UHGV virus genome: UHGV-0203498
Strand: one strand, 5' to 3'
Source: a virus
Length of the DNA stretch: 32,670 bases
Below, piece after piece: positions 1 through 25,795 of this stretch (the first letter of the stretch is position 1; each line of letters begins with the position of its first letter). The position numbers and the translations under genes are program-made. The notes beneath the pieces are model-generated. The model was not told where the DNA came from. It saw only the letters and a list, made by a program, of their open reading frames with translations, and searched no databases.

Positions 1-2064
1 GTTTGGAGGATTCTGCGTATAGTCGTTACCCATTTCATCAACGCTATCCTTAAGCCCGCGGCTGAAGCCATCCCACAACGAAGCGTTTGCACCGGTCTGT
101 GCCTCCTGCACTTCGCGAAGCTTAGACAACGCCCGGTCAATATCGGTATCGTTAGCACCAACACGACGAAGGCGGTCGATTAGCTGTAATTCTTCGCGCA
201 GGTTAGCCGCTTCGCGAGTGGAAAGCGCATACCCAGCGGCGGTGGCTTTTAGCTCGGCGTTCTGGTTCTTAAGGAAGGCATCGATCTGCGCGCTCGCCTT
301 GATCTGCTTCTCTTTCGCGTCCAGCAATTTGGCTTCTTCGACGATCTGCTCGCGTACCGCTTTAACCGACTCGAACTCCGCCATTTGCTGCTTTTCTGCT
401 GCCGTTAGTGCCCTTTCCTTGCTTGCGGCGATTAACTGCTCATTATCTGCAATCAGCTTGTTAAGGGCCGCCTGCGCGCGCTGTGTGCGGGTCTGCGAAG
501 TAGCGTTAGCCTCGATCTGCTTGCCCGATTCACGAAGTTGCGCCAGTTCGCTCCGTGCGGCCTCCAGCATTTTAACACCAGCATCCACGCGAACAGCCGC
601 GGCCTTCTTCGGTGCCGGGTCTTTGTAGCGCTCGTTGACCTGCTTCACCGCCTCAGCCAGTTCTTTCTCGCTAATCACTCCACGCTTATTCAGCAAATTG
701 AGGCGGGCGATCTCATCGGCGCGCTTCTTAGCGTTGGTGGCGAACTCCTTCTCAAACGCGGCGCGGTCCCGGGCTGTGCGGTTGGCCTCCTCATTCGCTT
801 TCGCTGCCTGGTCCGCAGCGCTGGCGTTGTCCCGCTCCGCACGGTTACGCAGGGTGAGAGTCGCTACTACTTTCTCCTGGGCGACCATTTCGCTATAAAG
901 CATGTTAATACGTGCTTTCTGCGCCTCGGTCATTACCCCACCGGCAGCGTTGACCGCTTTCATCTCGGCATAGTAAGCCGTTGTCATGCGCTGCAAGGAC
1001 TCACGCGCTTTCATCTCGGACTCATTCGAGGACTGCGCGCGGCCCACATCCAGGATGGCATCCCACATAGATTTCGCTGCCGATGTGACGACGTTCATCG
1101 ACCGCTCAAGCGTACCCATGTTGGCCTTAATATCGTTGGTCATAGTGGTGAACGACGCAGCCGCTGTTTTGTTAGCCAACGCAACTGCGTCAGTCTCGCG
1201 GCCCATATCCACAAGTGACTGCACCTGCTGGATCTGCGCCTCGGTAACGACATGGTACTTGTCCGCCAGTGCGCGCAAGCCACCAACCGGGTCATTGGAC
1301 AACTTCGCCACCGCAGCGACCACATCGTCAATCGGCTGGCTGGACGCCTTCGCGAAGTCATTAACGGTCTTAGCCAGTGCGCCGAAGTCAGCACCCGCCT
1401 TAACGCCCGCCGCCGCCAGTGCCTGAATTGTGTCTCGCGTCTTGCGGAATGACCCGCCCATGCGCTCGGCGTTCTCCGATAACACCAGGATTTGGTTAGC
1501 GGTGAGGCCGGAGATGTTACCGGACAGCGCCAGCGTCTTGTTTAGCGCTGCGACCTGGTTTTCTGCACGGGTAGTAACTGCCACGCCGACGCCTAACGTT
1601 GCCGTTAATGCCGCTAGGCCGATCCCGACCGGACCGAGAACGCCCGCAACATAACGCAGCGTGCTACCCAGGCCACCAAACGCCCCTGTTAGCTGAGGTA
1701 ACTGCTGAAGCATAACGCGGTGCACCGGCATACCCATCTCAAGCGTGACCGCAATATCCTGTAACTGGAATGCGGCGTTACGAGAGGCAAAGCCCAGGTT
1801 TTTGGTCGACATGCCTAACCTGTTGGCTAGTCGCTCCTGTTTCGTCATGCCATCGGCGGCGCGCTGCGATTCATTCGCCAGCTTTTCCATTCCGCCCGCG
1901 GCGTCACTCGTCACCTTTTTGGATTTGCCGAGTGTGTCGTTTAATTTCTTAACCTTGTTTTCTGTGTTCTCGGATTTCTGTGCGAAGGAGTCCAGCACAG
2001 TATTCGCCGTTCTGATTTGTGCAACATCCGCCTTTAGCGTGATGCCTGCTGCTTGATCTGCCAT
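1..2064 (-). CDS. Tail tape measure protein, N-terminal ~688 aa; C-terminus lies beyond the window start
   Basis: Minus-strand ATG at 2064..2062 opens a frame that stays open to position 1. Translation (MADQAAGITLKADVAQIRTANTV...) is long, alpha-helical and A/Q/K/E-rich, typical of tape measure proteins. It sits downstream of the tail chaperone genes. The ORF track omits it because it has no stop inside the window. Confidence 0.75.
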   Translation of the reverse strand, partial: MADQAAGITLKADVAQIRTANTVLDSFAQKSENTENKVKKLNDTLGKSKKVTSDAAGGMEKLANESQRAADGMTKQERLANRLGMSTKNLGFASRNAAFQLQDIAVTLEMGMPVHRVMLQQLPQLTGAFGGLGSTLRYVAGVLGPVGIGLAALTATLGVGVAVTTRAENQVAALNKTLALSGNISGLTANQILVLSENAERMGGSFRKTRDTIQALAAAGVKAGADFGALAKTVNDFAKASSQPIDDVVAAVAKLSNDPVGGLRALADKYHVVTEAQIQQVQSLVDMGRETDAVALANKTAAASFTTMTNDIKANMGTLERSMNVVTSAAKSMWDAILDVGRAQSSNESEMKARESLQRMTTAYYAEMKAVNAAGGVMTEAQKARINMLYSEMVAQEKVVATLTLRNRAERDNASAADQAAKANEEANRTARDRAAFEKEFATNAKKRADEIARLNLLNKRGVISEKELAEAVKQVNERYKDPAPKKAAAVRVDAGVKMLEAARSELAQLRESGKQIEANATSQTRTQRAQAALNKLIADNEQLIAASKERALTAAEKQQMAEFESVKAVREQIVEEAKLLDAKEKQIKASAQIDAFLKNQNAELKATAAGYALSTREAANLREELQLIDRLRRVGANDTDIDRALSKLREVQEAQTGANASLWDGFSRGLKDSVDEMGNDYTQNPPN

Positions 2065-2126
2065 TATGCAGTCCCCTTTTTTATGCAGTTGCCGATTGAC
2101 ATTGTATCAGCGAATTTAAAACAATC

Positions 2127-2289
2127 CTTATGCAGTCTCAGACGAGGGGGGTGCCAGACCCCCCGTCTAGTCTGAAAGACTGGGGTGCTGTCCCGCTGTC
2201 CCGATCGGCTGAAACCCGCGGCAGCACTGCGGGGGACGGGGTGCTGTCCCGCTTTGTCCCGCCCCTGGTCTGTCCCGCTTTTTGTCCCG
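2127..2289. repeat. Copy A of a ~163-bp structured repeat element (imperfect long palindrome followed by a GTCCCGC heptamer array)
   Basis: 2128-2203 is identical to 18923-18999 and 2233-2289 is identical to 19027-19083; a ~29-nt variable segment separates the two identical arms. Contains the near-palindrome CAGTCTCAGACGAGGGGGGTGCCAGACCCCCCGTCTAGTCTGAAAGACTG. Confidence 0.85.
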
Positions 2290-2447
2290 TTTGTTTTATG
2301 TAGTAAAACTGAATAGGTATGCACTTTTTCAGGGGGTGCCGTAGCGGGACGTCCCGCTTGTCCCGCTTTTAGTTTATGCAATAAAAGTAAATAGGTATGC
2401 AGTTTTCGAGGGGCGGGACAAAACGGGACGTCCCGCTTGTCCCGCTT
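2290..2447. repeat. Two tandem ~79-bp units (TTTATGCAATAAAA...AGGGGG...GGGACGTCCCGCTTGTCCCGC)
   Basis: Units begin at 2295 and 2374 with TTTATG(C/T)A(A/G)TAAAA and end with GGGACGTCCCGCTTGTCCCGC. Perfect 10-bp palindromes GGGACGTCCC lie at 2346-2355 and 2425-2434. Confidence 0.8.
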
Positions 2448-2450
2448 TAT

Positions 2451-3126
2451 TATGCGGGGTTTTGCTGCGCCATTTCATCGAGCGCGATTCGCTCCATTAG
2501 CTTGATATCTTTAAACGCACGTTGCTCGTTTTCGATGCCGTGCATCTTAAATAGCCATTCCAGTACGCCGTAGTCGATGCCGTATGCGCCACCGAATCCG
2601 GTGCGCCATTGCGTGGCGCAATCCGTGAATACGGCGACTATCTTCGCGTTGTCGGGCCATAGCGCAACAGGCGGACAAACATCTTCGGGGGCCGCGCCCC
2701 ATAAACTCGCGGCTAAATCCTCGGAGGGTGGCGGCGGGCCATAATAGCGTCGCGCCGCCTCAATTAGTTTTTTTCACGCAATCCCATCAGTTCGAGATAG
2801 TACGAGGTATGGAACACGCCGAACGCGCGCGGATAGTTGACTACCAGGCGGCGGACGTTCTCCGCATTAAATTCGTCCGGCAGATTCCAGCCTTCGGCGA
2901 CGTGCATGATGGCCTCGACCATAACGTTAAAGCCATCAGGGTCGTTGTCGTCATATTCCGATAGCTTGCGTTCCGTTTCCTGCATGGTCTGCGAAAACTC
3001 GTCAATCGGGCGGTGCCGGACGGTAAACGTCATCTTGCCTGGTTCGTTCTCGCCAGGGCGCGGGATCTCAATCGGCAGCTTAAAGGTTGGCTTAGGGTCG
3101 AGTGTGAAGAGTGGGGCTTTAGCCAT
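2451..3126 (-). CDS. Tail assembly chaperone frameshift fusion (gpGT-like), made by a programmed -1 shift at A AAA AAC (2767-2773)
   Basis: The -1 frame downstream of the heptamer is open for ~104 codons (KKLIEAARRYYGPPPPSEDLAASLWGAAPEDVCPP...MAQQNPA, stop at 2453..2451) and has no start codon of its own. This is the conserved G/GT arrangement upstream of tape measure genes. Confidence 0.55.
2764..3126 (-). CDS. Tail assembly chaperone (lambda gpG-like), 0-frame product
   Basis: ATG at 3126 is preceded by GGAG. Position is between the major tail gene and tape measure gene. The ORF ends in the slippery run GAA AAA AAC TAA. Confidence 0.6.
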   Translation of the reverse strand: MAKAPLFTLDPKPTFKLPIEIPRPGENEPGKMTFTVRHRPIDEFSQTMQETERKLSEYDDNDPDGFNVMVEAIMHVAEGWNLPDEFNAENVRRLVVNYPRAFGVFHTSYYLELMGLREKN

Positions 3127-3141
3127 TGTAATATTCTCCAA

Positions 3142-8644: not shown

Positions 8645-8674
8645 TTGCAATCTGGGTGTTGGTTGCACTATATT
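8645..8674 (+). promoter_or_regulatory. Putative sigma70-like promoter for the DnaN-like moron (TTGCAA-N18-TATATT), overlapping TTGGTTGCAC motifs
   Basis: TTGCAA at 8645-8650 and TATATT at 8669-8674; TTGGTTGCAC copies at 8659-8668 and 8673-8682; palindrome TTGGT-N5-ACCAA at 8673-8687 just before the RBS. Confidence 0.4.
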
Positions 8675-8703
8675 GGTTGCACACCAACAACGAGGAAATG
8701 AAA

Positions 8704-9216
8704 ATGATTAGAGTTAACTATGCCGACCTTAAGGCTGCTACGATGTGCGCCGCTACTAATGACGTCCGATACTACCTAAATGGTGTATTTTTCGACGAGA
8801 AAGGATTCATCGTGTCGACCGACGGCCACCGTTTGTTCTGCGGGTCCGCGGTTGTTCCAGAAGGTGAAAGTAAAATAGTATCAATTAAAGGCCGCTTACC
8901 TACTAAATTCGAATACTGCAACATCGACGGCACCTCCGCAGCGTTCTTCGATAGTAAAGACGTATTAATAGATACCATACCCTGCGAGATTGTAGACGGA
9001 CGCTTTCCAGACTGGAGAAGAGTTACGTCTTTCGTCAGCAATACCGTGGAGGCTATTGGGTTTAACGGGGCATACCTGGCCGACGCCTGCAAAATTGCTA
9101 AATTGTTCGACCGTAAGTTTGAGGGCTTAAAACTGGAATTCCAGGGTGTAGACAAAGCAACACGCGTGCTGTACAAAGGAGGTGCCTTCTTAGTTATCAT
9201 GCCGATGCGTTTGTAG
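8704..9216 (+). CDS. Truncated DNA polymerase III beta sliding-clamp (DnaN) homolog, 170 aa
   Basis: Translation carries DnaN signatures in order: DVRYYLNGVFF, STDGHRLF, VDGRFPDWRRV, IGFNGAYLADA and C-terminal FLVIMPMRL (E. coli DnaN: DVRYYLNGMLF, ATDGHRLAV, VDGRFPDYRRV, IGFNVSYVLDV, YVVMPMRL). ATG at 8704 is 7 nt after GAGGA. Alone on the plus strand among minus-strand head genes. Confidence 0.75.
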   Translation: MIRVNYADLKAATMCAATNDVRYYLNGVFFDEKGFIVSTDGHRLFCGSAVVPEGESKIVSIKGRLPTKFEYCNIDGTSAAFFDSKDVLIDTIPCEIVDGRFPDWRRVTSFVSNTVEAIGFNGAYLADACKIAKLFDRKFEGLKLEFQGVDKATRVLYKGGAFLVIMPMRL

Positions 9217-10772: not shown

Positions 10773-12276
10773 TGTCCGCTACCTTGTCCGGGTCTTCTTC
10801 GGTAGATTCTACCGCATCAGGTGACATTTGAGGCAATGGATTCTGATTTCGCAATTCGTCTTCCACCTGCTCGACGGTTTGCGAGTCGTCGATGACGCCC
10901 TGCGCCATCATCCACTTGATGAAATCAGCCAGGCGGACCGTACCAGTCTGCACACCCGACATCATCGCTGTCATAAGCTGCGCATCAACCGTGATTTCGG
11001 TGTAGAACTTGTTCAGCGTCACTCGCTGGTCCGCGGTGTCTCCAGTGAATAGCTGGACAATTTGCAGCGCACGGTTGAAAGCCTTCTCAACGTTACCGGC
11101 AATAAGTGACAGGATACTGTTATCAGTCTGCGCGTCGTAGGCCGCTTCTGTTGCCGTCTTAGGTGCAGTCCCCTTCTCAACCAGGGCCGCGCCAAGTTTA
11201 GCCATTTGCAACTCGCGGCGCTCGCACAACGCTACCGACAAGTTGCGCTCCTCGGCCTGGAGCAGTTTAGCGTCCATGTTCTGGCCCAGGATAACGCCCT
11301 TAGTTGCACCGAGAGCAATGCCACCCTTCAGGTTTTTGTCCGCCCATGATTGCGTCAGGCCCGTGGTGACAAGGGTCGGCTGGCCCACAATGTGCGCGAT
11401 CTCGGCAACGTCCGCTTCGGCGTTGTAGTGCTTAATATTGATAGACGCAATATCCGCCAGCGGCGCGGCGTCAGGCGATGCGTTGTTGTCCACCGCGCCA
11501 CACCAGCAAAATGGCAGTTGAGTAAGCGCGTTACCGGCTGCGTCCACCAACGGTACAAGGTCGGTTCGGGTGAAGCCACGCGGCAGGTCCATTTGCACCT
11601 CGGACGTGTCAGCGTTGTAAAACCAGCGGCGGGCGTGTGCCTTGCCGTCAATCATGCGAAGCTCGGTCCAGATGGTTACTTCGTGGTTTGCGAAGTCGTC
11701 CGGGTCTTCGGTGCTGATTTCGTCCGTTTCCTTCAGCACGATTAGCGTATCGACCCCGTGGGTCTGCCGCCAGTTGATGATCTGTTCTGCCGTATACAGG
11801 CGGATAAGCGGGCGGTGCGCAGCCATCTCGGCGGCGGTCTGCGGCACTACGTTACCCAGTTCGTCAAAGTTGGCCTGGTGGTCGTAGTCCACCATAAAGC
11901 CAGCGCGGCCAGATTGCAGCACTTCCGACATAGCACCGCGCAGGAGTTGCGGCAACGGCATACCGCTGCCGTCTACGTCATCAATCAGGTCAGCCATCGC
12001 CCCGGAAAGGTCCAGACTTACCGGTTTTGCAAAGGCAACGCCCAACAGCGCGTTAAGTGTGCGAGCGGTGGCGTTCAGGAATACAGCGCGTTGCTTATAC
12101 GCCTTATACCGCGCCCGTGATTTCGGGTCAGTATTGTCGCCGCTGGCGGGATGTGGCAGATACAAAGGGCCGCACGCCTTCACGGCGCGCTCCCCTGCTA
12201 CACAATCCCGGATCATTTTCCACTCTGGCGCGATGCGCGCATAAAGCGGGTGCTGGTTGTCAACGTTAACGGTCAT
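10756..12276 (-). CDS. Portal protein
   Basis: 506-aa ORF directly downstream of the large terminase gene; AAGGAA RBS; acidic C-terminus. Size and position fit a portal. Confidence 0.65.
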   Translation of the reverse strand: MTVNVDNQHPLYARIAPEWKMIRDCVAGERAVKACGPLYLPHPASGDNTDPKSRARYKAYKQRAVFLNATARTLNALLGVAFAKPVSLDLSGAMADLIDDVDGSGMPLPQLLRGAMSEVLQSGRAGFMVDYDHQANFDELGNVVPQTAAEMAAHRPLIRLYTAEQIINWRQTHGVDTLIVLKETDEISTEDPDDFANHEVTIWTELRMIDGKAHARRWFYNADTSEVQMDLPRGFTRTDLVPLVDAAGNALTQLPFCWCGAVDNNASPDAAPLADIASINIKHYNAEADVAEIAHIVGQPTLVTTGLTQSWADKNLKGGIALGATKGVILGQNMDAKLLQAEERNLSVALCERRELQMAKLGAALVEKGTAPKTATEAAYDAQTDNSILSLIAGNVEKAFNRALQIVQLFTGDTADQRVTLNKFYTEITVDAQLMTAMMSGVQTGTVRLADFIKWMMAQGVIDDSQTVEQVEDELRNQNPLPQMSPDAVESTEEDPDKVADNGEND

Positions 12277-12286
12277 GTTCGTTTCC

Positions 12287-13672
12287 TTAGTAGAAGTCTA
12301 CAGTTGGAACAACGGCGATTGGGCGAATCACAGGGAACAAGTGCGCAATTGGATAGCCCGCTGCATCGTTCATGTGGTCCACTCCGGCGGTTTTATCCGG
12401 CTCGCCTTTCTTCAGGTCGTAAACCTGCTGTTCCAGGCATTTCGCTAGTGTAGGGCATTTATCCAGGTTGACAAAATACTGGCGCACGCCCTTCGAGTTG
12501 CACATCATCGTATTCATCGCGATCAATCGGTCTTTCACAGGCGGGTTAACGCTGTCATATTCCACCTCGAAGCCTGCGTCTTCCAGTTGCGCGATATCTG
12601 ACGAAGAGGCGTTAACCGTCTTACGCGACTTGCCGCTGCTATCCGGGTAAACGACAACCCGACCGGCAGCACAATGATCGGGGTAGCGCTCCTCGATCGC
12701 CTCAATCATAGCCGGGGTGTCAAACAGGTCCACAAATTCATCCACTGCGTGGATTTCGTCGCGGAACTCCTTGTTCTCGGTAGTGCGCTGCCGTCTGACG
12801 TACACAACCGCAGCCATTTTCGTGACGTTAAAGTCCATACCAATAATCAACGTGTCATCCGGTTGCACTTCTTCGGTGCTGGCGTTCTCCTCACGGTTGA
12901 ACATCTTGTATACTGCGCCCGACGTAAGGTTGACAAACAGGCCGTTCAGGTACGCATCAATCAGGTTAGCCGGGTACTGACTGCGCAGCGTGTCGATAAA
13001 GTCTGCCGGTAGGTGGTGGTTATCGGTGGTCTTCGCCCGGATCAAACGCTTCTGGCTATCCTTCTCCACTTCAAAAATCTGGTACATCGCCCGGTAGCCT
13101 TCAGGCGTGGATACGATGACAAACTGGCGCACCAGACCCGCACGCAGACGACCAAGCAATTTGTGATACGCCGCAATTGCGACGTCCTGCTTAGTAGTGT
13201 CGAACTCATCGGCAACAATCCACGCGGCGTTAACACCGATAAGGCGGGTATAGTTCTCCATTGACTCACAAATAACGCGCGTCCATTTGCCTTTCACCAG
13301 CACGCTATAAATCTTGTCCTGCTTGTTGAACTTCCACCGGAAGCCAGCCTCGTCGAAAGCCTTCTCCAGCTCCGGATACATGATTTTAACCAGGAGTGGG
13401 ATAGTCGGCTCGGTCACGATGCCGTCATGACCAGGGTTCAGTGTCAGAAGCTGGATGACCTTACGTGCTGCAACCCATGACTTACCACCACCGAAGCCGG
13501 AACACAGACCGAGGATTTTAGTCTTAGTGTCCCGCAGTAGTTCCACCTGGTGCGGAAGGCAATCAGGCTGATACAGGCGGACGGCCTGTGCAACTCGCGT
13601 TGGGCGTGGCGGTCGGTTGCGCTTTGCGATCGCGCGTTCCAGGGCGCGGTGTTCTGCCGCATAGTTGCGCAT
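12287..13672 (-). CDS. Terminase large subunit
   Basis: Walker A GLCSGFGGGKSW and Walker B-like IVADEFD; 461 aa; its start overlaps the small-subunit stop (TAATG). Confidence 0.85.
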   Translation of the reverse strand: MRNYAAEHRALERAIAKRNRPPRPTRVAQAVRLYQPDCLPHQVELLRDTKTKILGLCSGFGGGKSWVAARKVIQLLTLNPGHDGIVTEPTIPLLVKIMYPELEKAFDEAGFRWKFNKQDKIYSVLVKGKWTRVICESMENYTRLIGVNAAWIVADEFDTTKQDVAIAAYHKLLGRLRAGLVRQFVIVSTPEGYRAMYQIFEVEKDSQKRLIRAKTTDNHHLPADFIDTLRSQYPANLIDAYLNGLFVNLTSGAVYKMFNREENASTEEVQPDDTLIIGMDFNVTKMAAVVYVRRQRTTENKEFRDEIHAVDEFVDLFDTPAMIEAIEERYPDHCAAGRVVVYPDSSGKSRKTVNASSSDIAQLEDAGFEVEYDSVNPPVKDRLIAMNTMMCNSKGVRQYFVNLDKCPTLAKCLEQQVYDLKKGEPDKTAGVDHMNDAAGYPIAHLFPVIRPIAVVPTVDFY

Positions 13673-14223
13673 TACTCACCCTGGCCTTTGCCTGTAGGTT
13701 CGACAACGACGTCGCCGTTATCATCTTCGTCATCATCCAGCGGAATATCGTCGCGGACGCCGTGGTTGGCTTTAAGCAGGAACGTAGCGAAGCCCGCCGC
13801 GATGGTGACGCCGCCAGCTTCCATCAGGAAAGTTTTCTGCAATTCCATAGCGTCCGCCATCGCCTCGGCGAACTCCTCATGTGCGCGCGCCCAGCGGTAC
13901 AGGCAGGCGATGCCAACCCCAATATCCGCAGCAAAGCGACCGAGAGTCGGCATCTTGTGGCGGGGAATGACTTGCGCAGCGCCCTTGTCGGAGTAGTTGA
14001 TCTGCCAGGCTACGGCATCGGCAAAATAGCGGCGAAGCTGGTCGCAATACACAGTGCGGTAGTCTGTCGGGCGCCCACATTTGCCGCCTTTACGACGCTT
14101 GCCATATTCGATCTCAGGTCCAAGATTGGTATGTTCGGTTTGCTCGCCTGGTTTACGGCGCGGGGTGACTGCCACTCGACCGTCCAGTTTGGCACGACGG
14201 CCCTTAACTCTGATTTCTGCCAT
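13672..14223 (-). CDS. Terminase small subunit
   Basis: Directly upstream of the large subunit gene. N-terminal basic DNA-binding-like region GRPTDYRTVYCDQLRRYF and an acidic C-terminus. Start taken at ATG 14223; ATG 14244 is also possible. Confidence 0.65.
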   Translation of the reverse strand: MAEIRVKGRRAKLDGRVAVTPRRKPGEQTEHTNLGPEIEYGKRRKGGKCGRPTDYRTVYCDQLRRYFADAVAWQINYSDKGAAQVIPRHKMPTLGRFAADIGVGIACLYRWARAHEEFAEAMADAMELQKTFLMEAGGVTIAAGFATFLLKANHGVRDDIPLDDDEDDNGDVVVEPTGKGQGE

Positions 14224-14353
14224 GATATAAGCCCTTTTATGCATATGCGCCGACCATCGGCAACATAGGAGACGGCCCTGCCATCTAAGGGGGATTATAA
14301 CAGGCACAAAAAAGCCCACCAAATCGGCAGGCTGGGAGGCTTACGGGTTGCCG

Positions 14354-18517: not shown

Positions 18518-18711
18518 CGTTCGGTCCTCTTCGTGATGGTTACGCTGTCCAGGAACTGGAAAAGCGCCTCTTGTGCCTTGACGCGCATTGCTTCGTATCG
18601 GCGCTCTTTCTTAAAGTTGCCGAGTAGGTGTGCGGCTCGCGCTTGCAGGTCAGCATTGTTCTCCGCCTCAATCAGTTCTAACAGTTCGTCGACCAGGTCT
18701 TCGTGTTCCAT
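18505..18711 (-). CDS. Hypothetical acidic protein; first gene of the operon
   Basis: ATG at 18711 preceded by AGGAGGA and by the TTGGT-N5-ACCAA palindrome. The upstream region carries a TTGCAG-N16-TTATAT promoter-like arrangement overlapping two ATTGGTTGCA motifs. Confidence 0.45.
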   Translation of the reverse strand: MEHEDLVDELLELIEAENNADLQARAAHLLGNFKKERRYEAMRVKAQEALFQFLDSVTITKRTERCEH

Positions 18712-18732
18712 CGTTCAGTCCTCCTGTTGGTG

Positions 18733-18776
18733 TGCAACCAATATAACAGGGTGCCAGGGTGACTGCAACCAATATT
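18733..18776 (-). promoter_or_regulatory. ATTGGTTGCA motif pair with overlapping promoter-like hexamers upstream of gene 18711
   Basis: On the minus strand: ATATTGGTTGCAGTCACCCTGGCACCCTGTTATATTGGTTGCACACCAACAGGAGG. Confidence 0.45.
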
Positions 18777-18921
18777 AATCACGCGCATGAAAAAGTTGAT
18801 CGCTATCTGCTGAAACTGCAAACTGCATTTTTCACTCTCCATTCTGCAACTCGCATTGGTTGCCGAGTTCATCGACGACCGCAATTTGCATCATGTTGCC
18901 GTGCGTTATGCAATCCCGGAT

Positions 18922-19083
18922 TTTATGCAGTCTCAGACGAGGGGGGTGCCAGACCCCCCGTCTAGTCTGAAAGACTGGGGTGCTGTCCCGCTGTCCCGCT
19001 CCTCTGGAAGCCGCGTCATCCGTGGGCGGGACGGGGTGCTGTCCCGCTTTGTCCCGCCCCTGGTCTGTCCCGCTTTTTGTCCC
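18922..19083. repeat. Copy B of the ~163-bp structured repeat element
   Basis: 18923-18999 is identical to 2128-2203 and 19027-19083 is identical to 2233-2289, in the same orientation, 16.8 kb from copy A. Confidence 0.85.
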
Positions 19084-19132
19084 GCTTACTTTATGCAATA
19101 AAAATGCATAATTATTCACTATATTCACACTA

Positions 19133-19216
19133 CACGGCAACCAATACGACCAGCTAAAAACACGCAATCTGGCAACCAATGCGCGCAGAAATTAACCAAC
19201 ATGGCAACCAATGCGC
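19133..19216 (-). promoter_or_regulatory. Three ATTGGTTGCC motif copies, including an exact 17-bp direct repeat
   Basis: Plus-strand GGCAACCAATGCGCGCA occurs at 19172-19188 and 19200-19216; a third GGCAACCAAT is at 19133-19142. Located downstream of the primase gene stop. Confidence 0.5.
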
Positions 19217-19223
19217 GCAAATT

Positions 19224-21488
19224 TTAATCTTTCAAGTCATCGTCTGTCGCCGAAAGCGTGATTGGGATATCCGATTTGATAACCAAATTAGACGACCCAT
19301 ATATGGCCCCGGTGTGTGGATCTGTGTAAAAACCGAGCACGCCGCGCTCGACCATATCGTCAATTGCCTTCGTCGATGTGCCACCTTTCGCGAGTCCCGC
19401 CTGGCGGACAATTGCCGATTTACTGAATCCAGTATGATCCGGGTTATCTTCCATCAGTTTTTCCAGTGCCGCATAAAGCACTTTTTCTTTTTCTGTGCGC
19501 GGTCCGGCGGTGTTCTCTTCCTTAACTGCGGCTTTGCCCGCGGCCTTCGCCTGTTCGATAGCGAACGGTGCCAGGGCAACCGGTACGAGGTAGAGAGTCT
19601 CGTCGCGTGGCGTGGAGGCGATAGGCTTGACGTCCCAACCGGCAACCACATCGCCGAAGTCAGGCCCAGCGCTGGTGGACTGGTGGGCTTCGAACGCCTC
19701 GGACTTGCGGAGATCCACCTTCACCTTGCACTTGAGCAGGACGAAGCCGCGCGGCGCTTGCTTGATGCCGTTACGAGACTTCTCGTGGTACAGGTTGAGT
19801 TGGCCTGGCTGGTTGTCGTCTGGCTGTTCCAGGAAGAACGCAGAATCGACAGCACCATGAAGCGCGCCGGATCCGCGTGGCGTTCTGCTGCCGTTTGCAC
19901 CTTTAGCCGGGTGGTGGATGACGCCCGCGCTGCCGCCTGTATTTTCCGCAATGGCCTTCAGCGCCTTGACTACCTCGCCCATATCGCTGGCGTTGTTCTC
20001 GTCGAATGGCTTGGCATCGGCGGACCGCAGCGCGACAGTCTGGTTGAGTGAGTCGAATGCCACCAGGCCAACCGGTTCGCCATTCGCGGTGCGATTGATA
20101 AAGCTGATAACTTCGCGCAGGCCAGACTTGCTGGTGATATCCCAGCCGCGTGACTGCAGGTCTATAATGTGCAACTTGTCCAGGTCGTGCTCGTATTTGA
20201 TCTGCAATGCTTCCTTACGCTGGCTGGAGGCTTCGCCGCCTTCCGCATCGAAATAGAAGCAATGGGACTGGACGACCTTCGCACCGCCAAACGGGATACC
20301 AGCGGCAACCGCGCCCATCTGACCCAGCACGTAGAACGACTTACCGATGTTCGACTCACCGGCGAGATACCAGGTCGATTTGAAGTTAACCAGGCCTTCG
20401 ATGATCGGGTCGTGTTTACTGAACAGGGCGACCGGCTCGTTGTCCAGGTCTGCATCTGTGCATTCGCCGAACTCGTCGCCGTCACCGACCGCGTCCACGA
20501 TATGCTCGTAGCATGATTCCACTTCCTCGTCGTCCAGCCCCGGAAGGATGGCGGCGATCTGCTTACGTGACATGTTGTGCGGTTCGACGTTCAGGTGGTC
20601 CGGGATACCGATCAGACGCAGCGCCAGGTGCTGGTGTTTATTCAGTTCTGAGCAACACTCGTTACCGGTGTGCATACACTTGAAACGGATCTCGCCATCC
20701 TTAACCAGGATTGCCGTTGACCCTTCGCCACTGTGCAGGTGTTCGTTAGGACACGGCACTTCATAGCCGCGACCGGATGACAGGGGTTCAAAGCCCGCCT
20801 GGAAGCACCAGTCCAGGATGCCGTCTGCCACACCGCCGTCGCCCTGGGTCAGTTCGTGGCGTACTTCCTCTTTCTCAACTCCCAGCTTGTCAGCCAGGCG
20901 GAGCAGACGACGGACGCGGGCACGCTTGCCGTAGTGGCACTTAACGACAGCCTGCTGGTGCGGCAGGTACATAAGGCGGTTTGTGTCTTTCGTGCAATCG
21001 TCGAAAGCCACATCAGACAGGCCCAGTTGGTCTAACAACGCATACTGGACGCGGCCCAGGTCTTCCGCCGGTACAGGCTTGTCAGTGAGCACCAGGAAAC
21101 GAGCGCAACGCGTGCCACCTTTCAGCGGGTGTCGGTCGCCGGTAGTGGTGTGGAAGACGTGCTCCAGTCCCGCGTCGATGAACGCCTTACGGCAGCGGCG
21201 TAAGGTGCTGGTGTCGGTGCGGTCAATATCGAAGAACAGGATCGAGCGGTCCACCGCACTGGTCTTACGACGCAATCCGTCACGGGTATACGCCACTATG
21301 CCATCAGCCTTACGCTTGCGGCGCGCATACTCGGCTTTATCTTCCGTCTTGTTGATATGCACCGACGATATTTCTTTCGCATCTTTGATAAATTCGAAAA
21401 ATTCATCAGTGGTCATCTGGAAGTTTTCCGCCCTGGCTTTTTCGCCTTTTTTAGCGGGTTTTGTTACAGCGAATTTAATTAAGCTCAT
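19224..21488 (-). CDS. DNA primase / helicase (primase-polymerase-like N-terminal domain, zinc-binding middle region, P-loop ATPase C-terminal domain)
   Basis: N-terminal ILFFDIDRTD (hhhhDhD primase-polymerase-like motif); Cys/His cluster CPNEHLH...CMHTGNECC; Walker A AGESNIGKS and Walker B-like GLVAFDSLN. Confidence 0.8.
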   Translation of the reverse strand: MSLIKFAVTKPAKKGEKARAENFQMTTDEFFEFIKDAKEISSVHINKTEDKAEYARRKRKADGIVAYTRDGLRRKTSAVDRSILFFDIDRTDTSTLRRCRKAFIDAGLEHVFHTTTGDRHPLKGGTRCARFLVLTDKPVPAEDLGRVQYALLDQLGLSDVAFDDCTKDTNRLMYLPHQQAVVKCHYGKRARVRRLLRLADKLGVEKEEVRHELTQGDGGVADGILDWCFQAGFEPLSSGRGYEVPCPNEHLHSGEGSTAILVKDGEIRFKCMHTGNECCSELNKHQHLALRLIGIPDHLNVEPHNMSRKQIAAILPGLDDEEVESCYEHIVDAVGDGDEFGECTDADLDNEPVALFSKHDPIIEGLVNFKSTWYLAGESNIGKSFYVLGQMGAVAAGIPFGGAKVVQSHCFYFDAEGGEASSQRKEALQIKYEHDLDKLHIIDLQSRGWDITSKSGLREVISFINRTANGEPVGLVAFDSLNQTVALRSADAKPFDENNASDMGEVVKALKAIAENTGGSAGVIHHPAKGANGSRTPRGSGALHGAVDSAFFLEQPDDNQPGQLNLYHEKSRNGIKQAPRGFVLLKCKVKVDLRKSEAFEAHQSTSAGPDFGDVVAGWDVKPIASTPRDETLYLVPVALAPFAIEQAKAAGKAAVKEENTAGPRTEKEKVLYAALEKLMEDNPDHTGFSKSAIVRQAGLAKGGTSTKAIDDMVERGVLGFYTDPHTGAIYGSSNLVIKSDIPITLSATDDDLKD

Positions 21489-21498
21489 TGCCGTAGCC

Positions 21499-21828
21499 TT
21501 ACTTAGAAGTTTTATTATTGCGTACCCAGGAGCGCACTGTGCTCTGATTAATTCCGGTCAACTCGGCAATCATCGCCCATGACTTACCTTCGTCGCGCAA
21601 ACGGATAACCTGCTTTTTGTATTCTTCCATTTCTTCATTGTGTTTTTGCAGCTTGCTTGCTGCCGTGCCATTGAGCAATTCAAGCCTGGCGCGTAATTCT
21701 TTTTCGACACTGCGCAGGCGCTCGATTTCAAATAACACCGCACCAACGGCGTCGGTATAAGCCCAGGACCGGCTTGTTTCACCGCTAACAGTTTTCGTTA
21801 ACATTTCGATTGCGTCGTTTACATTCAT
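21499..21828 (-). CDS. Putative DNA-binding regulator (coiled-coil N-terminus, C-terminal helix-turn-helix)
   Basis: C-terminal KSWAMIAELTGINQSTVRSWVRNN is HTH-like. First gene of the primase operon, preceded by GAGGGAAG RBS and the palindrome GTTGGT-N5-ACCAAC (21842-21858). Confidence 0.5.
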   Translation of the reverse strand: MNVNDAIEMLTKTVSGETSRSWAYTDAVGAVLFEIERLRSVEKELRARLELLNGTAASKLQKHNEEMEEYKKQVIRLRDEGKSWAMIAELTGINQSTVRSWVRNNKTSK

Positions 21829-22033: not shown

Positions 22034-22229
22034 TCACTCCGTCGACAGGATGCAGGACGCAAACTGGAGAGGGGCAACGCAGGGGCCGGATCGAAGTGTC
22101 AGGATTCCCAACCGTGATTATATAACCAGGTCCACTACCCGAACGGGAGAACGCGTAACCTGGCAATATGTTAAGGCCACCGACGAAGTTAACTGCCGAC
22201 ACCTAAACTTAACCAATCGGAGATATACC

Positions 22230-22760
22230 ATGTTTGAGCAAATCGTAAACCTGATCACACGCGGCGTAGTAGCACTGGAAACCATCGCGAAGCATTATGA
22301 AACCGTCGGTGCTGCCGTGGACCCAAAAGCGAACGGCACAGCTAAGAAAGGCAAGGCTAAGCCGGAAACCGAAGTCGAAGACGACGATCAGGACGAAGTA
22401 GAAGATACGCCTAAAGCGAAAAAAGGCGCGGCAAAAGAAACCAAGTCTAAAGGTAAGGCTAAGAAGGAAGTCGTAGAAGATGAAGACGACGAAGCGGAAG
22501 AAGAAGCTCCGGCGAAGTCTAAGAAAGCGAAAGGCAAAGGTAAGAAAGAAGCTGACCCGCTGGCAGAAATGCGCGACGAAATCAAACAGTATGCCGCTAT
22601 TATTGCAGGCGGTGATGATGATGATGCGAACGACGAATTTGATGACCTGCTGGAATCGTATGAAATTAAATCCATCGCCAAGCTGGAAGACGACGACGTC
22701 GAAGACTTCCACAAAGATTTAAAAGAAATCGTCGAAACCTATTTCGAACTGGAAGATTAA
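22230..22760 (+). CDS. Highly acidic, lysine-patch low-complexity protein (first early gene)
   Basis: ATG at 22230 preceded by GGAG at 8-nt spacing; alternating K-rich and D/E-rich blocks (KKGKAKPETEVEDDDQDEVED..., DEDDEAEEEAPAKSKKAKGKGKK). The ORF-track start at 22050 is unlikely. Confidence 0.5.
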   Translation: MFEQIVNLITRGVVALETIAKHYETVGAAVDPKANGTAKKGKAKPETEVEDDDQDEVEDTPKAKKGAAKETKSKGKAKKEVVEDEDDEAEEEAPAKSKKAKGKGKKEADPLAEMRDEIKQYAAIIAGGDDDDANDEFDDLLESYEIKSIAKLEDDDVEDFHKDLKEIVETYFELED

Positions 22761-24950: not shown

Positions 24951-25003
24951 GAACGGGGTGGCTCACAATAACCCCGATACATGTGAAAATGAGGAATTGG
25001 AAA

Positions 25004-25795
25004 ATGGCTAAAGTCAACCTGAAAAATGTGCGCGTATGCTTCCTGAAAATTTGGGAGCGTGATACCCCAAAACAGGATGGGCAGAAACCGGCATACCGTG
25101 CCGTTATTCTTCTGGATAAAGAAGATCCGCAGGTGGACAAAGTGGAAGCGGCAGCGCGCGCAGTGCTCACCGACAAGCTGAAATCCGAGAAGAATGCCGA
25201 TAAGTGGATGGACCGCCACTACGCACAGGACTCTAAGGAGTGCGCCGTCCGCGACGGTGACGAGCGCGACGAAGTAACCGAAGAGTTTGAAGGCATGTTG
25301 TACATCAACGCCAAGTCGTTTAAACAGCCTAACATCCAAACGTCACTGGGCGAGAAGCAGACCGAACAGGGTCTGACCGTAGAAGGCGACGAGATCGAAG
25401 GCCAGGAGATCTACTCCGGTTGTTACTGCAACGTGTCCCTCGATATTTGGGCGTGGAACAACACCAACGGCAAAGGACTCGGTGCCGGATTGCTGGGTCT
25501 GCGCTTCCGCGAAGACGGTGATGCCTTCGGCGGTGGTGGGTCTTCTTGCACCGATGACGATCTGGACAACGACGACGAAGACGAAGCACCGCGCAAGTCT
25601 AAAAAGTCAAAACGTCGTGATGACGACGATGATGATGACAAGCCGCGCAAGTCCAAGAAATCCAAGCGCCGCGATGACGACGACGATGAGGAAGAGGAAA
25701 AACCTCGCAAACGTCGTAAGCCACGCGATGACGAAGATGAGGACGATGATGACGATGACGACGATGTAAAACCTCGCAAACGTCGCCGCCGTTAA
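25004..25795 (+). CDS. Single-stranded DNA-binding protein (gp2.5-like) with a repetitive basic/acidic C-terminal tail
   Basis: ATG at 25004 preceded by GAGGAA at 8-nt spacing. N-terminus MAKVNLKNVRVCFLKIWE resembles gp2.5-like phage SSBs. The C-terminus is built of repeats such as PRKSKKSKRRDDDDDDD. Confidence 0.55.
   Translation: MAKVNLKNVRVCFLKIWERDTPKQDGQKPAYRAVILLDKEDPQVDKVEAAARAVLTDKLKSEKNADKWMDRHYAQDSKECAVRDGDERDEVTEEFEGMLYINAKSFKQPNIQTSLGEKQTEQGLTVEGDEIEGQEIYSGCYCNVSLDIWAWNNTNGKGLGAGLLGLRFREDGDAFGGGGSSCTDDDLDNDDEDEAPRKSKKSKRRDDDDDDDKPRKSKKSKRRDDDDDEEEEKPRKRRKPRDDEDEDDDDDDDDVKPRKRRRR

What the first reader, a model, noticed from the sequence alone, without database searches (positions are those of the whole stretch)
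2290..2447. Tandem 79-bp units with GGGACGTCCC palindromes and (T/C)GTCCCGC heptamer arrays
Copy A is extended by two tandem units, each ending in GGGACGTCCCGCTTGTCCCGC; about ten GTCCCGC-type heptamers occur in one orientation within 320 bp. Dense short direct repeats around a 10-bp perfect palindrome are characteristic of protein-binding arrays (iteron-like, or a centromere/packaging-type site). The chaperone frameshift ORF stops only 4 bp from the array.
Basis: seen in the sequence. Interest (0 to 1): 0.65.

Follow-up and report, generated by a model that had tools for sequence, protein, structure and literature searches.

The report
Iteron arrays, probable phage replication origin
Two non-coding stretches of this E. 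coli phage carry dense arrays of the short motif CGGGAC(A), which look like binding sites for a phage protein; the most likely role is a loading site or replication origin for the phage's own helicase-primase, but no experiment has tested this.

Summary
The window is a Dhillonvirus (HK578/SO-1-like coliphage). The finding lies in a 385-bp non-coding gap (2065-2449) between the tail-assembly-chaperone stop and the tape-measure start. GTCCCGC occurs 10 times there, against 0.08 expected from shuffles of the gap itself. A 198-bp core (2128-2325) is repeated at 18923-19120, immediately 3' of the helicase-primase gene. CGGGACA is the most locally clustered 7-mer in all four Dhillonvirus genomes examined. 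Motif columns are about 77% invariant, against about 40% for spacer columns. Related phages keep the same layout after their helicase-primase gene (short repeats, then a GC hairpin, then the late genes), but the repeat differs by lineage: GGGGAGA, TTGCGAG(T), GGGGATC, TCGCCCCG. The helicase-primase is modelled as a primase-like N-terminal domain, a zinc cluster, an RSF1010 RepA-like helicase and a variable C-terminal winged-helix domain. The best reading (confidence about 0.45) is iteron arrays that act as origin or helicase-loading sites, analogous to SaPI Rep/ori and P4 ori/crr. The tandem 79-bp units would be an amplified second copy. Rivals are operator arrays at operon boundaries, RNA structure, and a pac site. 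The Sodalis phage SO-1 GenBank record already flags both loci as repeat regions A and B. Interest is moderate.

The parts
2065..2449 (-). Region A: the whole non-coding gap between the chaperone (G/GT) stop at 2450-2452 and the tape-measure ATG at 2064-2062. It contains everything in the finding.
   Evidence: Sequence; ORFs; Phage_TAC_4 chaperone; homologous gap annotated as 'repeat_region, region A' in SO-1.
2369..2447 (-). Tandem 79-bp unit next to the chaperone stop. It has four sites in a symmetric arrangement (CGGGAC aag CGGGAC|GTCCCG tttt GTCCCG, 2414-2445) plus an A+T-rich segment (2368-2410, 72% A+T) carrying TGCATA-N15-TGCATAA.
   Evidence: conserved in 14 distinct Dhillonvirus sequences.
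2290..2368 (-). Second tandem 79-bp unit. Sites at 2345-2366 (CGGGAC aag CGGGAC|GTCCCG; the fourth site has decayed in this phage) plus an A+T-rich segment (2290-2331, 74% A+T).
2128..2325 (-). Core copy A, the 198-bp direct repeat of copy B. It holds six forward CGGGAC sites in three pairs (+ strand GTCCCG at 2190, 2198, 2246, 2256, 2272, 2284), one inverted partial site, and the hairpin.
   Evidence: the repeat finder family D1, 89% identity; site positions.
2133..2182 (-). GC-rich hairpin: CAGTCTTTCAGACT-AGACGGGGGG-tctggca-CCCCCC(T)CGTCT-GAGACTG. The stem is fixed and the loop varies freely among relatives. No U-tract follows it on the sense strand.
   Evidence: loop variants; DNA fold -12.5 kcal/mol, z = -3.0; equivalent hairpins in eiAU and Cornellvirus.
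2101..2109 (-). Invariant extended -10-like element, TGATACAAT, about 37 nt upstream of the tape-measure ATG. It is a probable promoter for the tape-measure and distal tail genes.
   Evidence: Invariant in 14 of 14 distinct region-A sequences, while the neighbouring bases vary; coordinates. Promoter function is inferred.
18923..19120 (-). Core copy B: the same site pairs (+ strand GTCCCG at 18985, 18993, 19041, 19051, 19067, 19079; inverted at 19027) and an identical hairpin (18928-18977).
   Evidence: annotated as 'region B' in SO-1.
18712..19223 (-). Region B: the whole gap between the helicase-primase stop (19224-19226) and the first late gene (ATG at 18711-18709). In the direction of transcription it holds: GCGCGCATTGGTTGCC x2 (19171-19218); an A+T-rich segment with GTGAATA x2 and the inverted repeat TTATGCA-N7-TGCATAA (19086-19135, 76% A+T); the site array; the hairpin; and the promoter-like TTGCAG-N17-TATATT (18740-18768).
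19224..21488 (-). 754-aa helicase-primase, the candidate binder. Domains: primase-like N-terminal domain with invariant D87/D89; Cys/His cluster C246-H287; RepA-like helicase about 355-590; winged-helix domain 666-737; acidic tail.
21499..21828 (-). 109-aa helix-turn-helix protein (HTH_23 / Sigma70_r4_2-like) encoded just upstream of the helicase-primase. It is the alternative candidate binder.
   Evidence: Its HTH segment is nearly identical in the L041 lineage, which keeps the same CGGGAC repeat.

Best explanation
The CGGGAC(A) arrays are iterons: clustered binding sites for one lineage-specific phage DNA-binding protein. The most likely binder is the 754-aa helicase-primase, acting through its C-terminal winged-helix domain.

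Region B lies directly 3' of that gene and would be the ancestral origin or helicase-loading site. Region A, which holds the finding, is a duplicated copy of the 198-bp core. It has been extended by two 79-bp units, each made of a symmetric four-site set and a 40-bp A+T-rich segment that could melt.

Proposed mechanism (inferred, not shown):
- Winged-helix domains of helicase-primase subunits dock on the paired and inverted sites.
- Rings assemble on either side of the A+T-rich segment and open it.
- The neighbouring GC hairpin, extruded from single-stranded DNA, may serve as a priming or entry signal.
- Region A would then be a second origin or a distant cis-enhancer of initiation, as crr is for P4.

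What is shown here: the enrichment, the conservation pattern, the two-locus arrangement, the lineage-specific motif replacement, and the predicted domain architecture.
For: 1. Enrichment far beyond local composition: 10 observed against 0.08 expected in the gap. CGGGACA/GCGGGAC is the most locally clustered 7-mer in the window, Gluttony, Ioannina and SO-1.
2. Motif columns are 76-79% invariant against 37-45% for the other columns of the array (Mann-Whitney p = 2e-6 and 3e-4). The sites, not the spacers, are under constraint.
3. The gap immediately 3' of the helicase-primase ORF carries clustered short repeats in every lineage examined, and the repeat differs by lineage. The table gives identity of each lineage's helicase-primase to the window's.

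| Lineage | Identity to window | Repeat |
|---|---|---|
| Dhillonvirus, and L041 | L041: 68% | CGGGACA |
| L042, L043 | 49%, 48% | TTGCGAG(T) |
| L044 | 46% | GGGGATC |
| Cornellvirus | 44% | GGGGAGA (7 of 9 genome copies lie there) |
| Eiauvirus eiAU-183 | not measured over the full length | TCGCCCCG |

Sources.

4. Where two loci exist, both carry the same lineage-specific motif (Dhillonvirus; eiAU 52-nt shared block). This implies one common binder.
6. The small HTH gene upstream belongs to a different family in Dhillonvirus/L041 (HTH_23) than in the other lineages (Cro-like HTH_3), yet the array layout is the same. The conserved helicase-primase is therefore the more parsimonious binder.
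7. No other initiator-like protein was detected.
8. Precedent: SaPI Rep and the fused PriRep5 are self-loading helicases whose C-terminal winged-helix domain recognises 5-6-bp iterons. There are 6-12 iterons immediately downstream of rep, around an A+T-rich centre, with iterons on each side pointing in opposite directions (PMC9371898). In region A the A+T-rich segments (72-74% A+T) are flanked in this way.
Against: - No binding, melting or origin activity has been tested.
- Grouping by iteron type follows overall phylogeny. The primase-like N-terminal domain gives the same groups, so the co-variation does not single out the winged-helix domain.
- In region B the sites lie on only one side of the A+T-rich segment.
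- RecA-fold RepA/DnaB-type helicases are usually loaded by a separate initiator; RSF1010 RepA is loaded through RepC (own knowledge).
- Phages with this kind of replication gene set (family-A DNA polymerase, gp2.5-like single-strand-binding protein, exonuclease) can start replication from transcripts, as T7 does (own knowledge).
- An origin inside the tail operon is unusual.
- Both loci also sit at operon boundaries with promoter-like elements, which equally suits a transcriptional role.
Confidence: 0.45

Rival explanations
1. The arrays are operators for a phage transcription regulator, for example the 109-aa HTH protein or an unidentified early or late protein. On this reading they sit at two operon boundaries and control read-through, insulation or activation of the promoters just downstream, those for the late operon and for the tape-measure and tail genes.
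For: - Both loci lie between an operon end and a conserved promoter-like element: TTGCAG-N17-TATATT before the first late gene, and the invariant TGATACAAT before the tape-measure gene.
- Ioannina-type phages have a canonical intrinsic terminator right after the chaperone gene, so region A is a true inter-operon spacer there.
- The HTH protein's HTH segment is almost identical in the L041 lineage, which has the same repeat.
- Precedent from own knowledge: the omega repressor of pSM19035 binds arrays of heptads in direct and inverted orientation.
Against: - The arrays lie 60-330 bp upstream of the promoter-like elements and are separated from them by the hairpin.
- The small-HTH family is swapped between lineages while the layout stays the same.
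- The recognition helices of the Cro-like proteins do not track the repeat type: L042 and L043 share a repeat but differ as much from each other as from SP-031.
- Promoter-associated motifs (TTGGTTGC, GTGAATAGT) are shared across genera, whereas the repeats are not.
Confidence: 0.2
2. The element works as RNA. The inverted sites and the GC hairpin would fold in the late transcript, or in an antisense transcript, as terminators, processing or stability signals, or an antitermination site present at two places, as the lambda nut sites are.
For: - The sense RNA of the gap folds at -153 kcal/mol, z = -6.0.
- The hairpin stem is fixed while its loop varies, and equivalent hairpins with different sequence exist in eiAU and Cornellvirus.
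- On the + (antisense) strand each unit reads as a terminator-like hairpin followed by a T-run.
- WFI annotators called a terminator here.
Against: - No U-tract follows any of the hairpins on the sense strand.
- Most of the folding energy is a trivial consequence of inverted copies of one motif.
- The forward sites outnumber the inverted ones 10 to 3, and most have no pairing partner.
- No Rfam family matches.
- An RNA role does not explain why the motif is replaced lineage by lineage while spacing and orientation patterns are kept.
Confidence: 0.12
3. The array is a packaging (pac) recognition site bound by the small terminase subunit, as in the hexamer arrays of P1 pac.
For: - Dhillonviruses package by a headful mechanism (PhageTerm on Opt-212, PMC9022532), so a pac site must exist somewhere.
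- Repeated short motifs flanking a cut site are known for P1 pac (own knowledge).
- A few public records begin or end inside the region.
Against: - There are two loci per genome, 4.6 kb upstream and about 11 kb downstream of the terS-like gene (13672-14322).
- Cornellvirus has only the locus next to the helicase-primase.
- Sf6/P22-type small terminases normally recognise a site within or next to their own gene (own knowledge).
- Record ends coincide with repeat boundaries (window 2128 is exactly the edge of repeat D1), and start positions are otherwise scattered. This is the pattern of assembly breaks.
Confidence: 0.05
4. The array is a selfish or neutral repeat, for example a duplicated intergenic segment amplified by slippage or recombination, with no function of its own.
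For: - Region A is absent from Cornellvirus, so it is not universally required.
- Hairpin-loop variants are shuffled between A and B in different genomes, which indicates recombination or gene conversion.
Against: - Region A is present at the same position in at least 152 of the 159 matching phage records.
- The motif positions are selectively conserved.
- An analogous gap at the same place in Eiauvirus carries that genus's own motif.
Confidence: 0.05

Closest known systems
SaPI replication origins with Rep / PriRep self-loading helicases (Staphylococcus aureus pathogenicity islands)
   Same: - Short (5-6 bp) iterons, 6-12 copies, immediately downstream of the helicase or primase-helicase ORF.
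- An A+T-rich centre with iterons on each side in opposite orientation.
- A helicase carrying a C-terminal winged-helix domain.
- Iteron sequence specific to each element (PMC9371898).
- Here: 7-13 sites per locus, copy B directly 3' of the gene, a predicted winged-helix domain, and lineage-specific repeats.
   Different: - There is a second, amplified locus inside the tail operon.
- A conserved GC hairpin sits next to the array.
- The element is in a virulent phage, not a satellite.
Satellite phage P4 ori and crr with the alpha primase-helicase (own knowledge)
   Same: - Two separated cis elements carry the same short iteron.
- One of them (crr) is built from tandem direct repeats, each holding several iterons.
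- A single primase-helicase-DNA-binding polypeptide recognises both.
   Different: - P4 alpha is a superfamily-3 helicase. No homology was detected here.
- The spacing between the two loci is 16.8 kb, against about 4.5 kb in P4.
- A requirement for the second site has not been tested.
IncQ plasmid RSF1010 oriV with RepA, RepB' and RepC (own knowledge, plus structure match)
   Same: - The helicase domain is structurally closest to RSF1010 RepA.
- The origin combines iterons, GC-rich and A+T-rich segments, and hairpin-forming single-strand initiation sites used by a dedicated primase.
   Different: - RSF1010 iterons are about 20 bp and are bound by a separate initiator, RepC. No RepC-like protein was found here.
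- Primase, helicase and the putative DNA-binding domain are fused in one protein.
SV40 / polyomavirus core origin (own knowledge)
   Same: Four copies of a pentanucleotide (GAGGC) are arranged as two forward and two inverted sites. They are flanked by an A+T tract and an imperfect palindrome, and are bound by the origin-binding domain of the replicative helicase. Each 79-bp unit here has the same forward-forward-inverted-inverted arrangement beside an A+T-rich segment.
   Different: The proteins and hosts are unrelated. This is a resemblance of layout only.
'Region A' and 'region B' repeat_region features in the Sodalis phage SO-1 GenBank record (NC_013600.1)
   Same: These are the same two loci in a congeneric phage. 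They are described as 'direct, inverted and palindromic repeat sequences' with mutual similarity.
   Different: This is an annotation only. No paper describing their function was found in the searchable library.

Membership tests
Iteron-type origin served by a self-loading initiator-helicase (SaPI Rep/ori type) | Six or more short (5-8 bp) repeats clustered in a non-coding segment, far above chance | tested here: met
   13 CGGGAC sites in region A and 7 in region B; 10 GTCCCGC against 0.08 expected.
Iteron-type origin served by a self-loading initiator-helicase (SaPI Rep/ori type) | Array lies immediately downstream of the helicase (or primase-helicase) ORF | tested here: met
   Met for copy B and for the equivalent gap in six other lineages. 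Not met for region A itself, which lies between the chaperone and tape-measure genes.
Iteron-type origin served by a self-loading initiator-helicase (SaPI Rep/ori type) | A+T-rich segment flanked by iterons pointing in opposite directions | tested here: met
   Region A: segments of 72-74% A+T (2290-2331, 2368-2410) have inverted sites on one side and forward sites on the other. Region B: sites lie on one side only.
Iteron-type origin served by a self-loading initiator-helicase (SaPI Rep/ori type) | Helicase carries a sequence-specific winged-helix DNA-binding domain | tested here: inconclusive
   [not shown]
Iteron-type origin served by a self-loading initiator-helicase (SaPI Rep/ori type) | Helicase homologous to SaPI Rep (AAA+ type) | tested here: not met
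   Pfam AAA_25; best structural match is RSF1010 RepA, followed by DnaB, gp41 and T7 gp4. The relationship is functional analogy, not family membership.
Iteron-type origin served by a self-loading initiator-helicase (SaPI Rep/ori type) | Supports initiator-dependent replication | not testable with these tools
   Needs marker-frequency analysis, 2D gels or plasmid-based origin assays.
P4 ori/crr two-site origin | Two separated loci share the same iteron, one of them built from tandem repeat units | tested here: met
   198-bp shared core, with two 79-bp units in region A only.
P4 ori/crr two-site origin | P4 alpha-type (D5/SF3) primase-helicase | tested here: not met
   No D5/SF3 signature; the helicase is of RepA type.
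IncQ (RSF1010) oriV | About 20-bp iterons bound by a separate RepC initiator | tested here: not met
   Sites are 6-7 bp. No RepC-like protein was found among the window ORFs scanned or in the annotations.
Headful packaging site (pac) bound by small terminase | A single site per genome, in or next to the terS gene, coinciding with the first packaging cut | tested here: not met
   Two loci, 4.6 and about 11 kb from the terS-like ORF at 13672-14322.
Partition centromere (parC/parS/omega-heptad type) | Accompanying partition NTPase and centromere-binding protein genes | tested here: not met
   None in the window ORFs scanned or in complete Dhillonvirus annotations.
Rho-independent terminator | GC-rich hairpin directly followed by a U-tract on the transcribed strand | tested here: not met
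   Nothing on the sense (minus) strand. Two terminator-like sites were found, but only on the antisense (+) strand, at 2343-2367 and 2424-2444.
Described RNA families (Rfam 15) | Covariance-model match at gathering score | tested here: not met
   0 matches in the whole window.

The most novel reading that the evidence does not exclude
A virulent siphophage uses a two-site origin system. A RepA-type primase-helicase loads itself through a C-terminal winged-helix domain onto lineage-specific 6-7-bp iterons. The second, amplified site sits between the tail chaperone and tape-measure genes. It acts as a distant enhancer of initiation, or couples replication-fork entry to expression of the distal tail genes from the adjacent promoter. 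This would be the first self-loading, origin-recognising helicase of the RecA-fold (SF4) class, and a P4 crr-like element in a lytic phage.
Probability: 0.15. Interest if true: 0.65.

Novelty: new member of a known kind. Interest (0 to 1): 0.42.

Why it matters
No paper in the searchable library describes the replication origin of the HK578/SO-1-like coliphages, and I know of none for their Salmonella and Edwardsiella relatives. These phages are common in sewage and gut samples, are used in defence-system screens (the BASEL collection) and are considered for therapy.

The arrays give a concrete, testable candidate for the origin and for its recognition protein. They come with a natural series of five different repeat/protein pairs, which could be used for specificity-swap experiments.

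If the helicase-primase itself reads the sites, initiator-helicase fusion would extend from the AAA+/SF3 helicases (SaPI Rep, P4 alpha, viral large T antigen and E1) to the RepA/DnaB class.

There is also a practical point. The 198-bp repeat and the tandem units break short-read assemblies and set arbitrary genome ends in public records.

Tried and rejected
- GC skew of a complete genome (Gluttony). The minimum lies at the divergent early promoter region and simply follows gene orientation, so it says nothing about an origin.
- Rfam. No hit in the window.
- Literature. Searches for Dhillonvirus, HK578, SO-1, EP23 and SSL-2009a with 'repeat', 'origin' or 'iteron', and for the motif itself, found no description of these regions. 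The motif search returned only primer sequences.
- Sequence searches of the helicase-primase against PDB sequences. The single-sequence and profile searches gave only weak or spurious hits, BurrH and RepA at E > 1e-4. Structure prediction was needed.
- DnaA boxes. TTATGCA(G/A)T matches TTATNCACA only in 7 of 9 positions and fails at the two 3' positions, so I did not claim DnaA boxes.
- 'CGGCA(A/G)C' as a shared transcription-start motif. The scan showed it is common in coding sequence, and I dropped it.
- Antisense promoter TTGACA-N18-AACAAT (2096-2125, + strand). The TTGACA part is not conserved among relatives, whereas the sense-strand TGATACAAT is invariant. I rejected the antisense promoter as a conserved feature.
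- Record and contig ends inside the region (Maverick, UAE_MI-01, eiAU-183, IMG/VR 3300045988_009799). I considered them as possible physical termini and rejected this, because they coincide with repeat edges and other records start at scattered positions.
- CsrA-sponge, G-quadruplex or R-loop ideas for the G-rich repeats. I did not pursue them: in eiAU the repeat is C-rich on the sense strand, so strand bias is not conserved.
- Plasmid homologues that might have proven origins. Only one full-length hit was found, a 44-kb phage-sized record at 33% identity.
- Region A in the 68%-identity lineage. The attempt to retrieve it failed, because its chaperone is too divergent for the pattern search.
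Full report
**Identity of the window.** The window is 88.5-90% identical over most of its length to HK578/SO-1-like coliphages of the genus Dhillonvirus, such as bov22_1, Gluttony and BF9. Genes from position 1 to 21828 run on the minus strand. The finding therefore has to be read on the minus strand.

**Checking the observation.**
- The region 2065-2449 is a non-coding gap. It lies between the stop of the frameshifted tail-assembly chaperone (TAA at 2450-2452; G ORF 2764-3141 = Pfam Phage_TAC_4; slippery A-run at 2770-2776) and the ATG of the tape-measure gene (2064-2062).
- Tandem Repeats Finder reports a period-78 array at 2295-2448, 2.0 copies, 82% matches.
- GGGACGTCCC occurs twice, at 2346 and 2425.
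- GTCCCG(C) occurs ten times on the + strand and three times inverted.
- In the whole window there are 25 GTCCCGC against 6.3 expected.
- Against 2000 dinucleotide-preserving shuffles of the gap itself, 10 are observed against 0.08 expected (maximum 2). Inside 2290-2447 the figures are 6 against 0.02.

**A second locus.** The 198-bp core 2128-2325 is repeated at 89% identity at 18923-19120. That copy lies in the 512-bp gap between the stop of a 754-aa helicase-primase (19224) and the first gene of the late operon (ATG at 18711). A complete genome (Gluttony) has just these two loci.

Read in the direction of transcription, both loci share this order:
1. an A+T-rich segment carrying TGCATA(A) motifs;
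2. pairs of CGGGAC(A) sites spaced 8-12 bp apart;
3. one inverted site;
4. a further pair of sites;
5. a GC-rich hairpin (AGACGGGGGG-loop-CCCCCC(T)CGTCT with extended flanks);
6. a promoter-like element;
7. the next gene.

Region A adds two 79-bp units. Each consists of a symmetric four-site set (CGGGAC-n3-CGGGAC|GTCCCG-n4-GTCCCG) and a 40-bp segment of 72-74% A+T. The window average is 45.5% A+T.

**Prior knowledge.** The GenBank record of Sodalis phage SO-1 (Dhillonvirus SO1) already annotates both gaps as repeat_region 'region A' and 'region B'. Its note reads 'consists of direct, inverted and palindromic repeat sequences; sequence similarity with region B; possible ...'. One other record, WFI, marks a terminator in region A. 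I found no paper in the searchable library that describes or tests these regions.

**Conservation within the genus.**
- The 391-bp query spanning region A (window 2060-2450) matches 159 phage records, and 152 of them hold at least 80% of it.
- An exact-pattern scan of IMG/VR, together with the GenBank genomes, gave 14 distinct region-A and 17 distinct region-B sequences.
- Within the arrays, columns belonging to CGGGAC/GTCCCG sites are 76% (A) and 79% (B) invariant. The remaining columns are 45% and 37% invariant (Mann-Whitney p = 2e-6 and 3e-4).
- The hairpin stem is fixed while its 6-8-nt loop takes at least six different sequences. The same loop variants appear in A of one genome and B of another, so the two loci exchange sequence.
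- An extended -10-like TGATACAAT, about 37 nt before the tape-measure ATG, is invariant.
- Ioannina-type phages have a canonical intrinsic terminator directly after the chaperone gene. Region A is therefore an inter-operon spacer, as region B is.

**Comparison across genera.** This is the most informative result. Homologues of the helicase-primase at 43-69% identity were located, and their genomic neighbourhoods were fetched. Every one has a gap of 290-900 bp immediately after the gene. Each gap holds clustered short repeats followed by a hairpin-forming inverted repeat. The repeat differs by lineage; the table gives identity of each lineage's helicase-primase to the window's.

| Lineage | Identity to window | Repeat |
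|---|---|---|
| Dhillonvirus | window's own genus | CGGGACA |
| L041 | 68% | CGGGACA |
| L042, L043 | 49%, 48% | TTGCGAG(T), both orientations |
| L044 | 46% | GGGGATC / GATCCCT |
| Cornellvirus (FSL SP-031/038) | 44% | GGGGAGA, 7 of 9 genome copies in this gap |
| Eiauvirus eiAU-183 | not measured over the full length | TCGCCCCG |

- Cornellvirus has no gap between the chaperone and tape-measure genes, so it has only the region-B locus.
- Eiauvirus has both gaps. They share a 52-nt block (88% identity) that carries its own motif, and a hairpin homologous to the Dhillonvirus one sits just before the tape-measure gene.
- Two things follow. The layout is older than the motif. And where there are two loci, they carry the same lineage-specific motif. 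This is the pattern expected for sites read by a co-evolving, phage-encoded DNA-binding protein.

**Who could bind.** The 754-aa protein matches only Pfam AAA_25 and PHROG 3228, 'replicative helicase-primase'. An alignment of 40 homologues and an AlphaFold2 model (pLDDT 75.5) give this domain map:
- an N-terminal alpha/beta domain with invariant D87 and D89. I read this as primase-like, from the DxD motif and weak PHROG 'DNA primase' hits at residues 24-176; its fold class was not confirmed;
- an invariant Cys/His cluster (C246, H252, C271, H273, C279, H285, H287);
- a C-terminal helix-helix-helix-strand-strand module at 666-737;
- an acidic tail.

The other candidate is the small helix-turn-helix protein encoded just upstream. 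It is an HTH_23/sigma-region-4-like protein in Dhillonvirus and L041. In the other lineages it is an unrelated Cro-like HTH_3 protein, whose recognition helices do not follow repeat type. The array layout survives this family swap, so the conserved helicase-primase is the more economical candidate. The co-variation does not exceed what phylogeny alone would give, however: the primase-like N-terminal domain yields the same groups. No other initiator-like or partition protein was detected.

**Most likely mechanism.** The arrangement closely parallels the origins of staphylococcal pathogenicity islands. According to PMC9371898, Rep, or the fused primase-Rep of SaPI5, is a self-loading helicase. 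Its C-terminal winged-helix domain recognises penta- or hexanucleotide iterons. Six to twelve iterons lie immediately downstream of the rep ORF, around an A+T-rich centre, with at least two on each side pointing in opposite directions.

The two-locus arrangement, with tandem units in one locus, recalls P4 ori and crr. The four-site symmetric set beside an A+T tract recalls the SV40 core origin. The RepA-type helicase with iterons and hairpins recalls RSF1010 oriV. These last three comparisons rest on my own knowledge.

I therefore propose that regions A and B are helicase-primase loading sites, that is, origins or an origin plus an enhancer. Region A would be a duplicated and amplified copy. 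Confidence is about 0.45. The steps from 'sites' to 'bound by the winged-helix domain' to 'origin melting at the A+T segments' to 'hairpin as a priming signal' are all inferred.

**Rival explanations.**
- *Operator arrays (0.2).* The sites could control read-through and the promoters at two operon boundaries. The positions and the nearby promoter-like elements fit. The distance from those elements, the intervening hairpin, and the lack of correspondence with the Cro-like proteins argue against it.
- *RNA structure (0.12).* The sense RNA folds with z = -6.0. This mostly reflects inverted copies of one motif. There is no U-tract on the sense strand, terminator-like shapes exist only on the antisense strand, and Rfam has no match.
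- *A pac site (0.05).* Packaging is headful. But there are two loci far from terS, and the record ends in the region coincide with repeat edges.
- *Neutral repeat (0.05).* Positional conservation and the selective constraint on the sites argue against this.
- *Partition centromere.* Not supported: there are no partition genes.

**Novelty and interest.** The repeat regions themselves were noticed by the SO-1 annotators. What is added here:
- the statistical and comparative demonstration that the short motif is the constrained unit;
- its replacement by four other motifs in related genera with the layout kept;
- the match of motifs between the two loci within a genome;
- the predicted winged-helix domain on a RepA-type primase-helicase.

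If correct, this is a new member of a known kind (iteron origins read by an initiator-helicase) in a helicase class where self-loading through a winged-helix domain has not, to my knowledge, been described. It comes with an unusual second site inside the tail operon. It is moderately interesting and readily testable. It is not categorically new.

Noticed in passing
window 8669-8689 (+) and 18725-18745 (-); TTGGTTGC pairs at 8659/8673, 15650/15673, 18734/18765, 19137/19172/19204, 24924/24940, 31629/31646: A perfect 21-nt inverted repeat, TATATTGGTTGCACACCAACA, marks the promoter-like element plus leader of the first late gene. The same sequence precedes a + strand ORF at 8656-9216, placed among the minus-strand genes of the head region. 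TTGGTTGC occurs mostly in pairs. The pairs I checked lie in the region-B gap and at this inverted-repeat copy near 8.67 kb; I did not check whether the others are intergenic. It is also the most clustered motif in Eiauvirus (GCAACCA). It looks like a phage-specific promoter or operator motif, distinct from the CGGGAC sites.
   Followed up: partly
window 19171-19218 (minus strand): Two copies of GCGCGCATTGGTTGCC, 32 bp apart, lie just after the helicase-primase stop codon (a third, partial copy is at 19137-19144). They are conserved in most Dhillonviruses, some of which have a palindromic variant. Function unknown.
   Followed up: no
window 19091-19111 (minus strand); L009 13781-13813; L007 4356-4424 and 4777-4845: The inverted repeat TTATGCA-N7-TGCATAA has a freely varying 7-nt spacer among Dhillonviruses. 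The adjacent GTGAATA(G)T motif is shared with Cornellvirus and with Kagunavirus promoters next to a small HTH gene. This is probably an operator or promoter module older than the iterons.
   Followed up: partly
window 2770-2776 (minus-strand A7 run): This is the slippery sequence for the programmed -1 frameshift of the tail-assembly chaperone (G 2764-3141, GT extension to 2450). It is ordinary for siphophages, but several public records annotate the extension as a separate hypothetical protein or as 'tape measure'.
   Followed up: partly
L003 (Ioannina) 11420-11445; also the region-A sequence taken from L038: A canonical intrinsic terminator (GGCCGG-taat-TCCGGCC + TTTTTC) is inserted between the chaperone stop and the array in one Dhillonvirus sub-lineage only.
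   Followed up: no
window 2128 and 2171; L055 (contig end); KF772234 record start: Several public genome records and a metagenomic contig begin or end inside region A, one exactly at the edge of the 198-bp repeat. These are most likely assembly break points caused by the repeat, not physical genome ends.
   Followed up: partly
window 20627-20751 (codons for residues 246-287 of the helicase-primase): An invariant Cys/His cluster (C246, H252, C271, H273, C279, H285, H287) lies between the primase-like and helicase domains. It is presumably a zinc-binding module, and could take part in template or site recognition.
   Followed up: no
window 22371-22760 and 25559-25794: GA(A/C)GA(C/T)GA-type codon repeats encode long Asp/Glu-rich stretches. 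One is in the 236-aa ORF (22050-22760). The other is in the 270-aa ORF (24983-25795), the positional counterpart of the gp2.5-like single-strand-binding protein annotated in Gluttony. They account for most of the other direct-repeat families in the window.
   Followed up: no
L011 367-720 (eiAU-183 record 42367-42720, reverse strand): The Eiauvirus counterpart of region A holds a reverse-strand ORF (O197_54) inside the chaperone/tape-measure gap. It may be an inserted mobile gene. I did not examine it.
   Followed up: no
Hairpin loops in regions A and B: loci L012-L040, plus window 2152-2158 and 18947-18953: The same few loop sequences (TCTGGCA, TCAATGG, TCAGTGG, TCAGCGG, TATTGT) are distributed between region A and region B in different combinations in different genomes. 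This indicates gene conversion or recombination between the two loci or between phages.
   Followed up: partly
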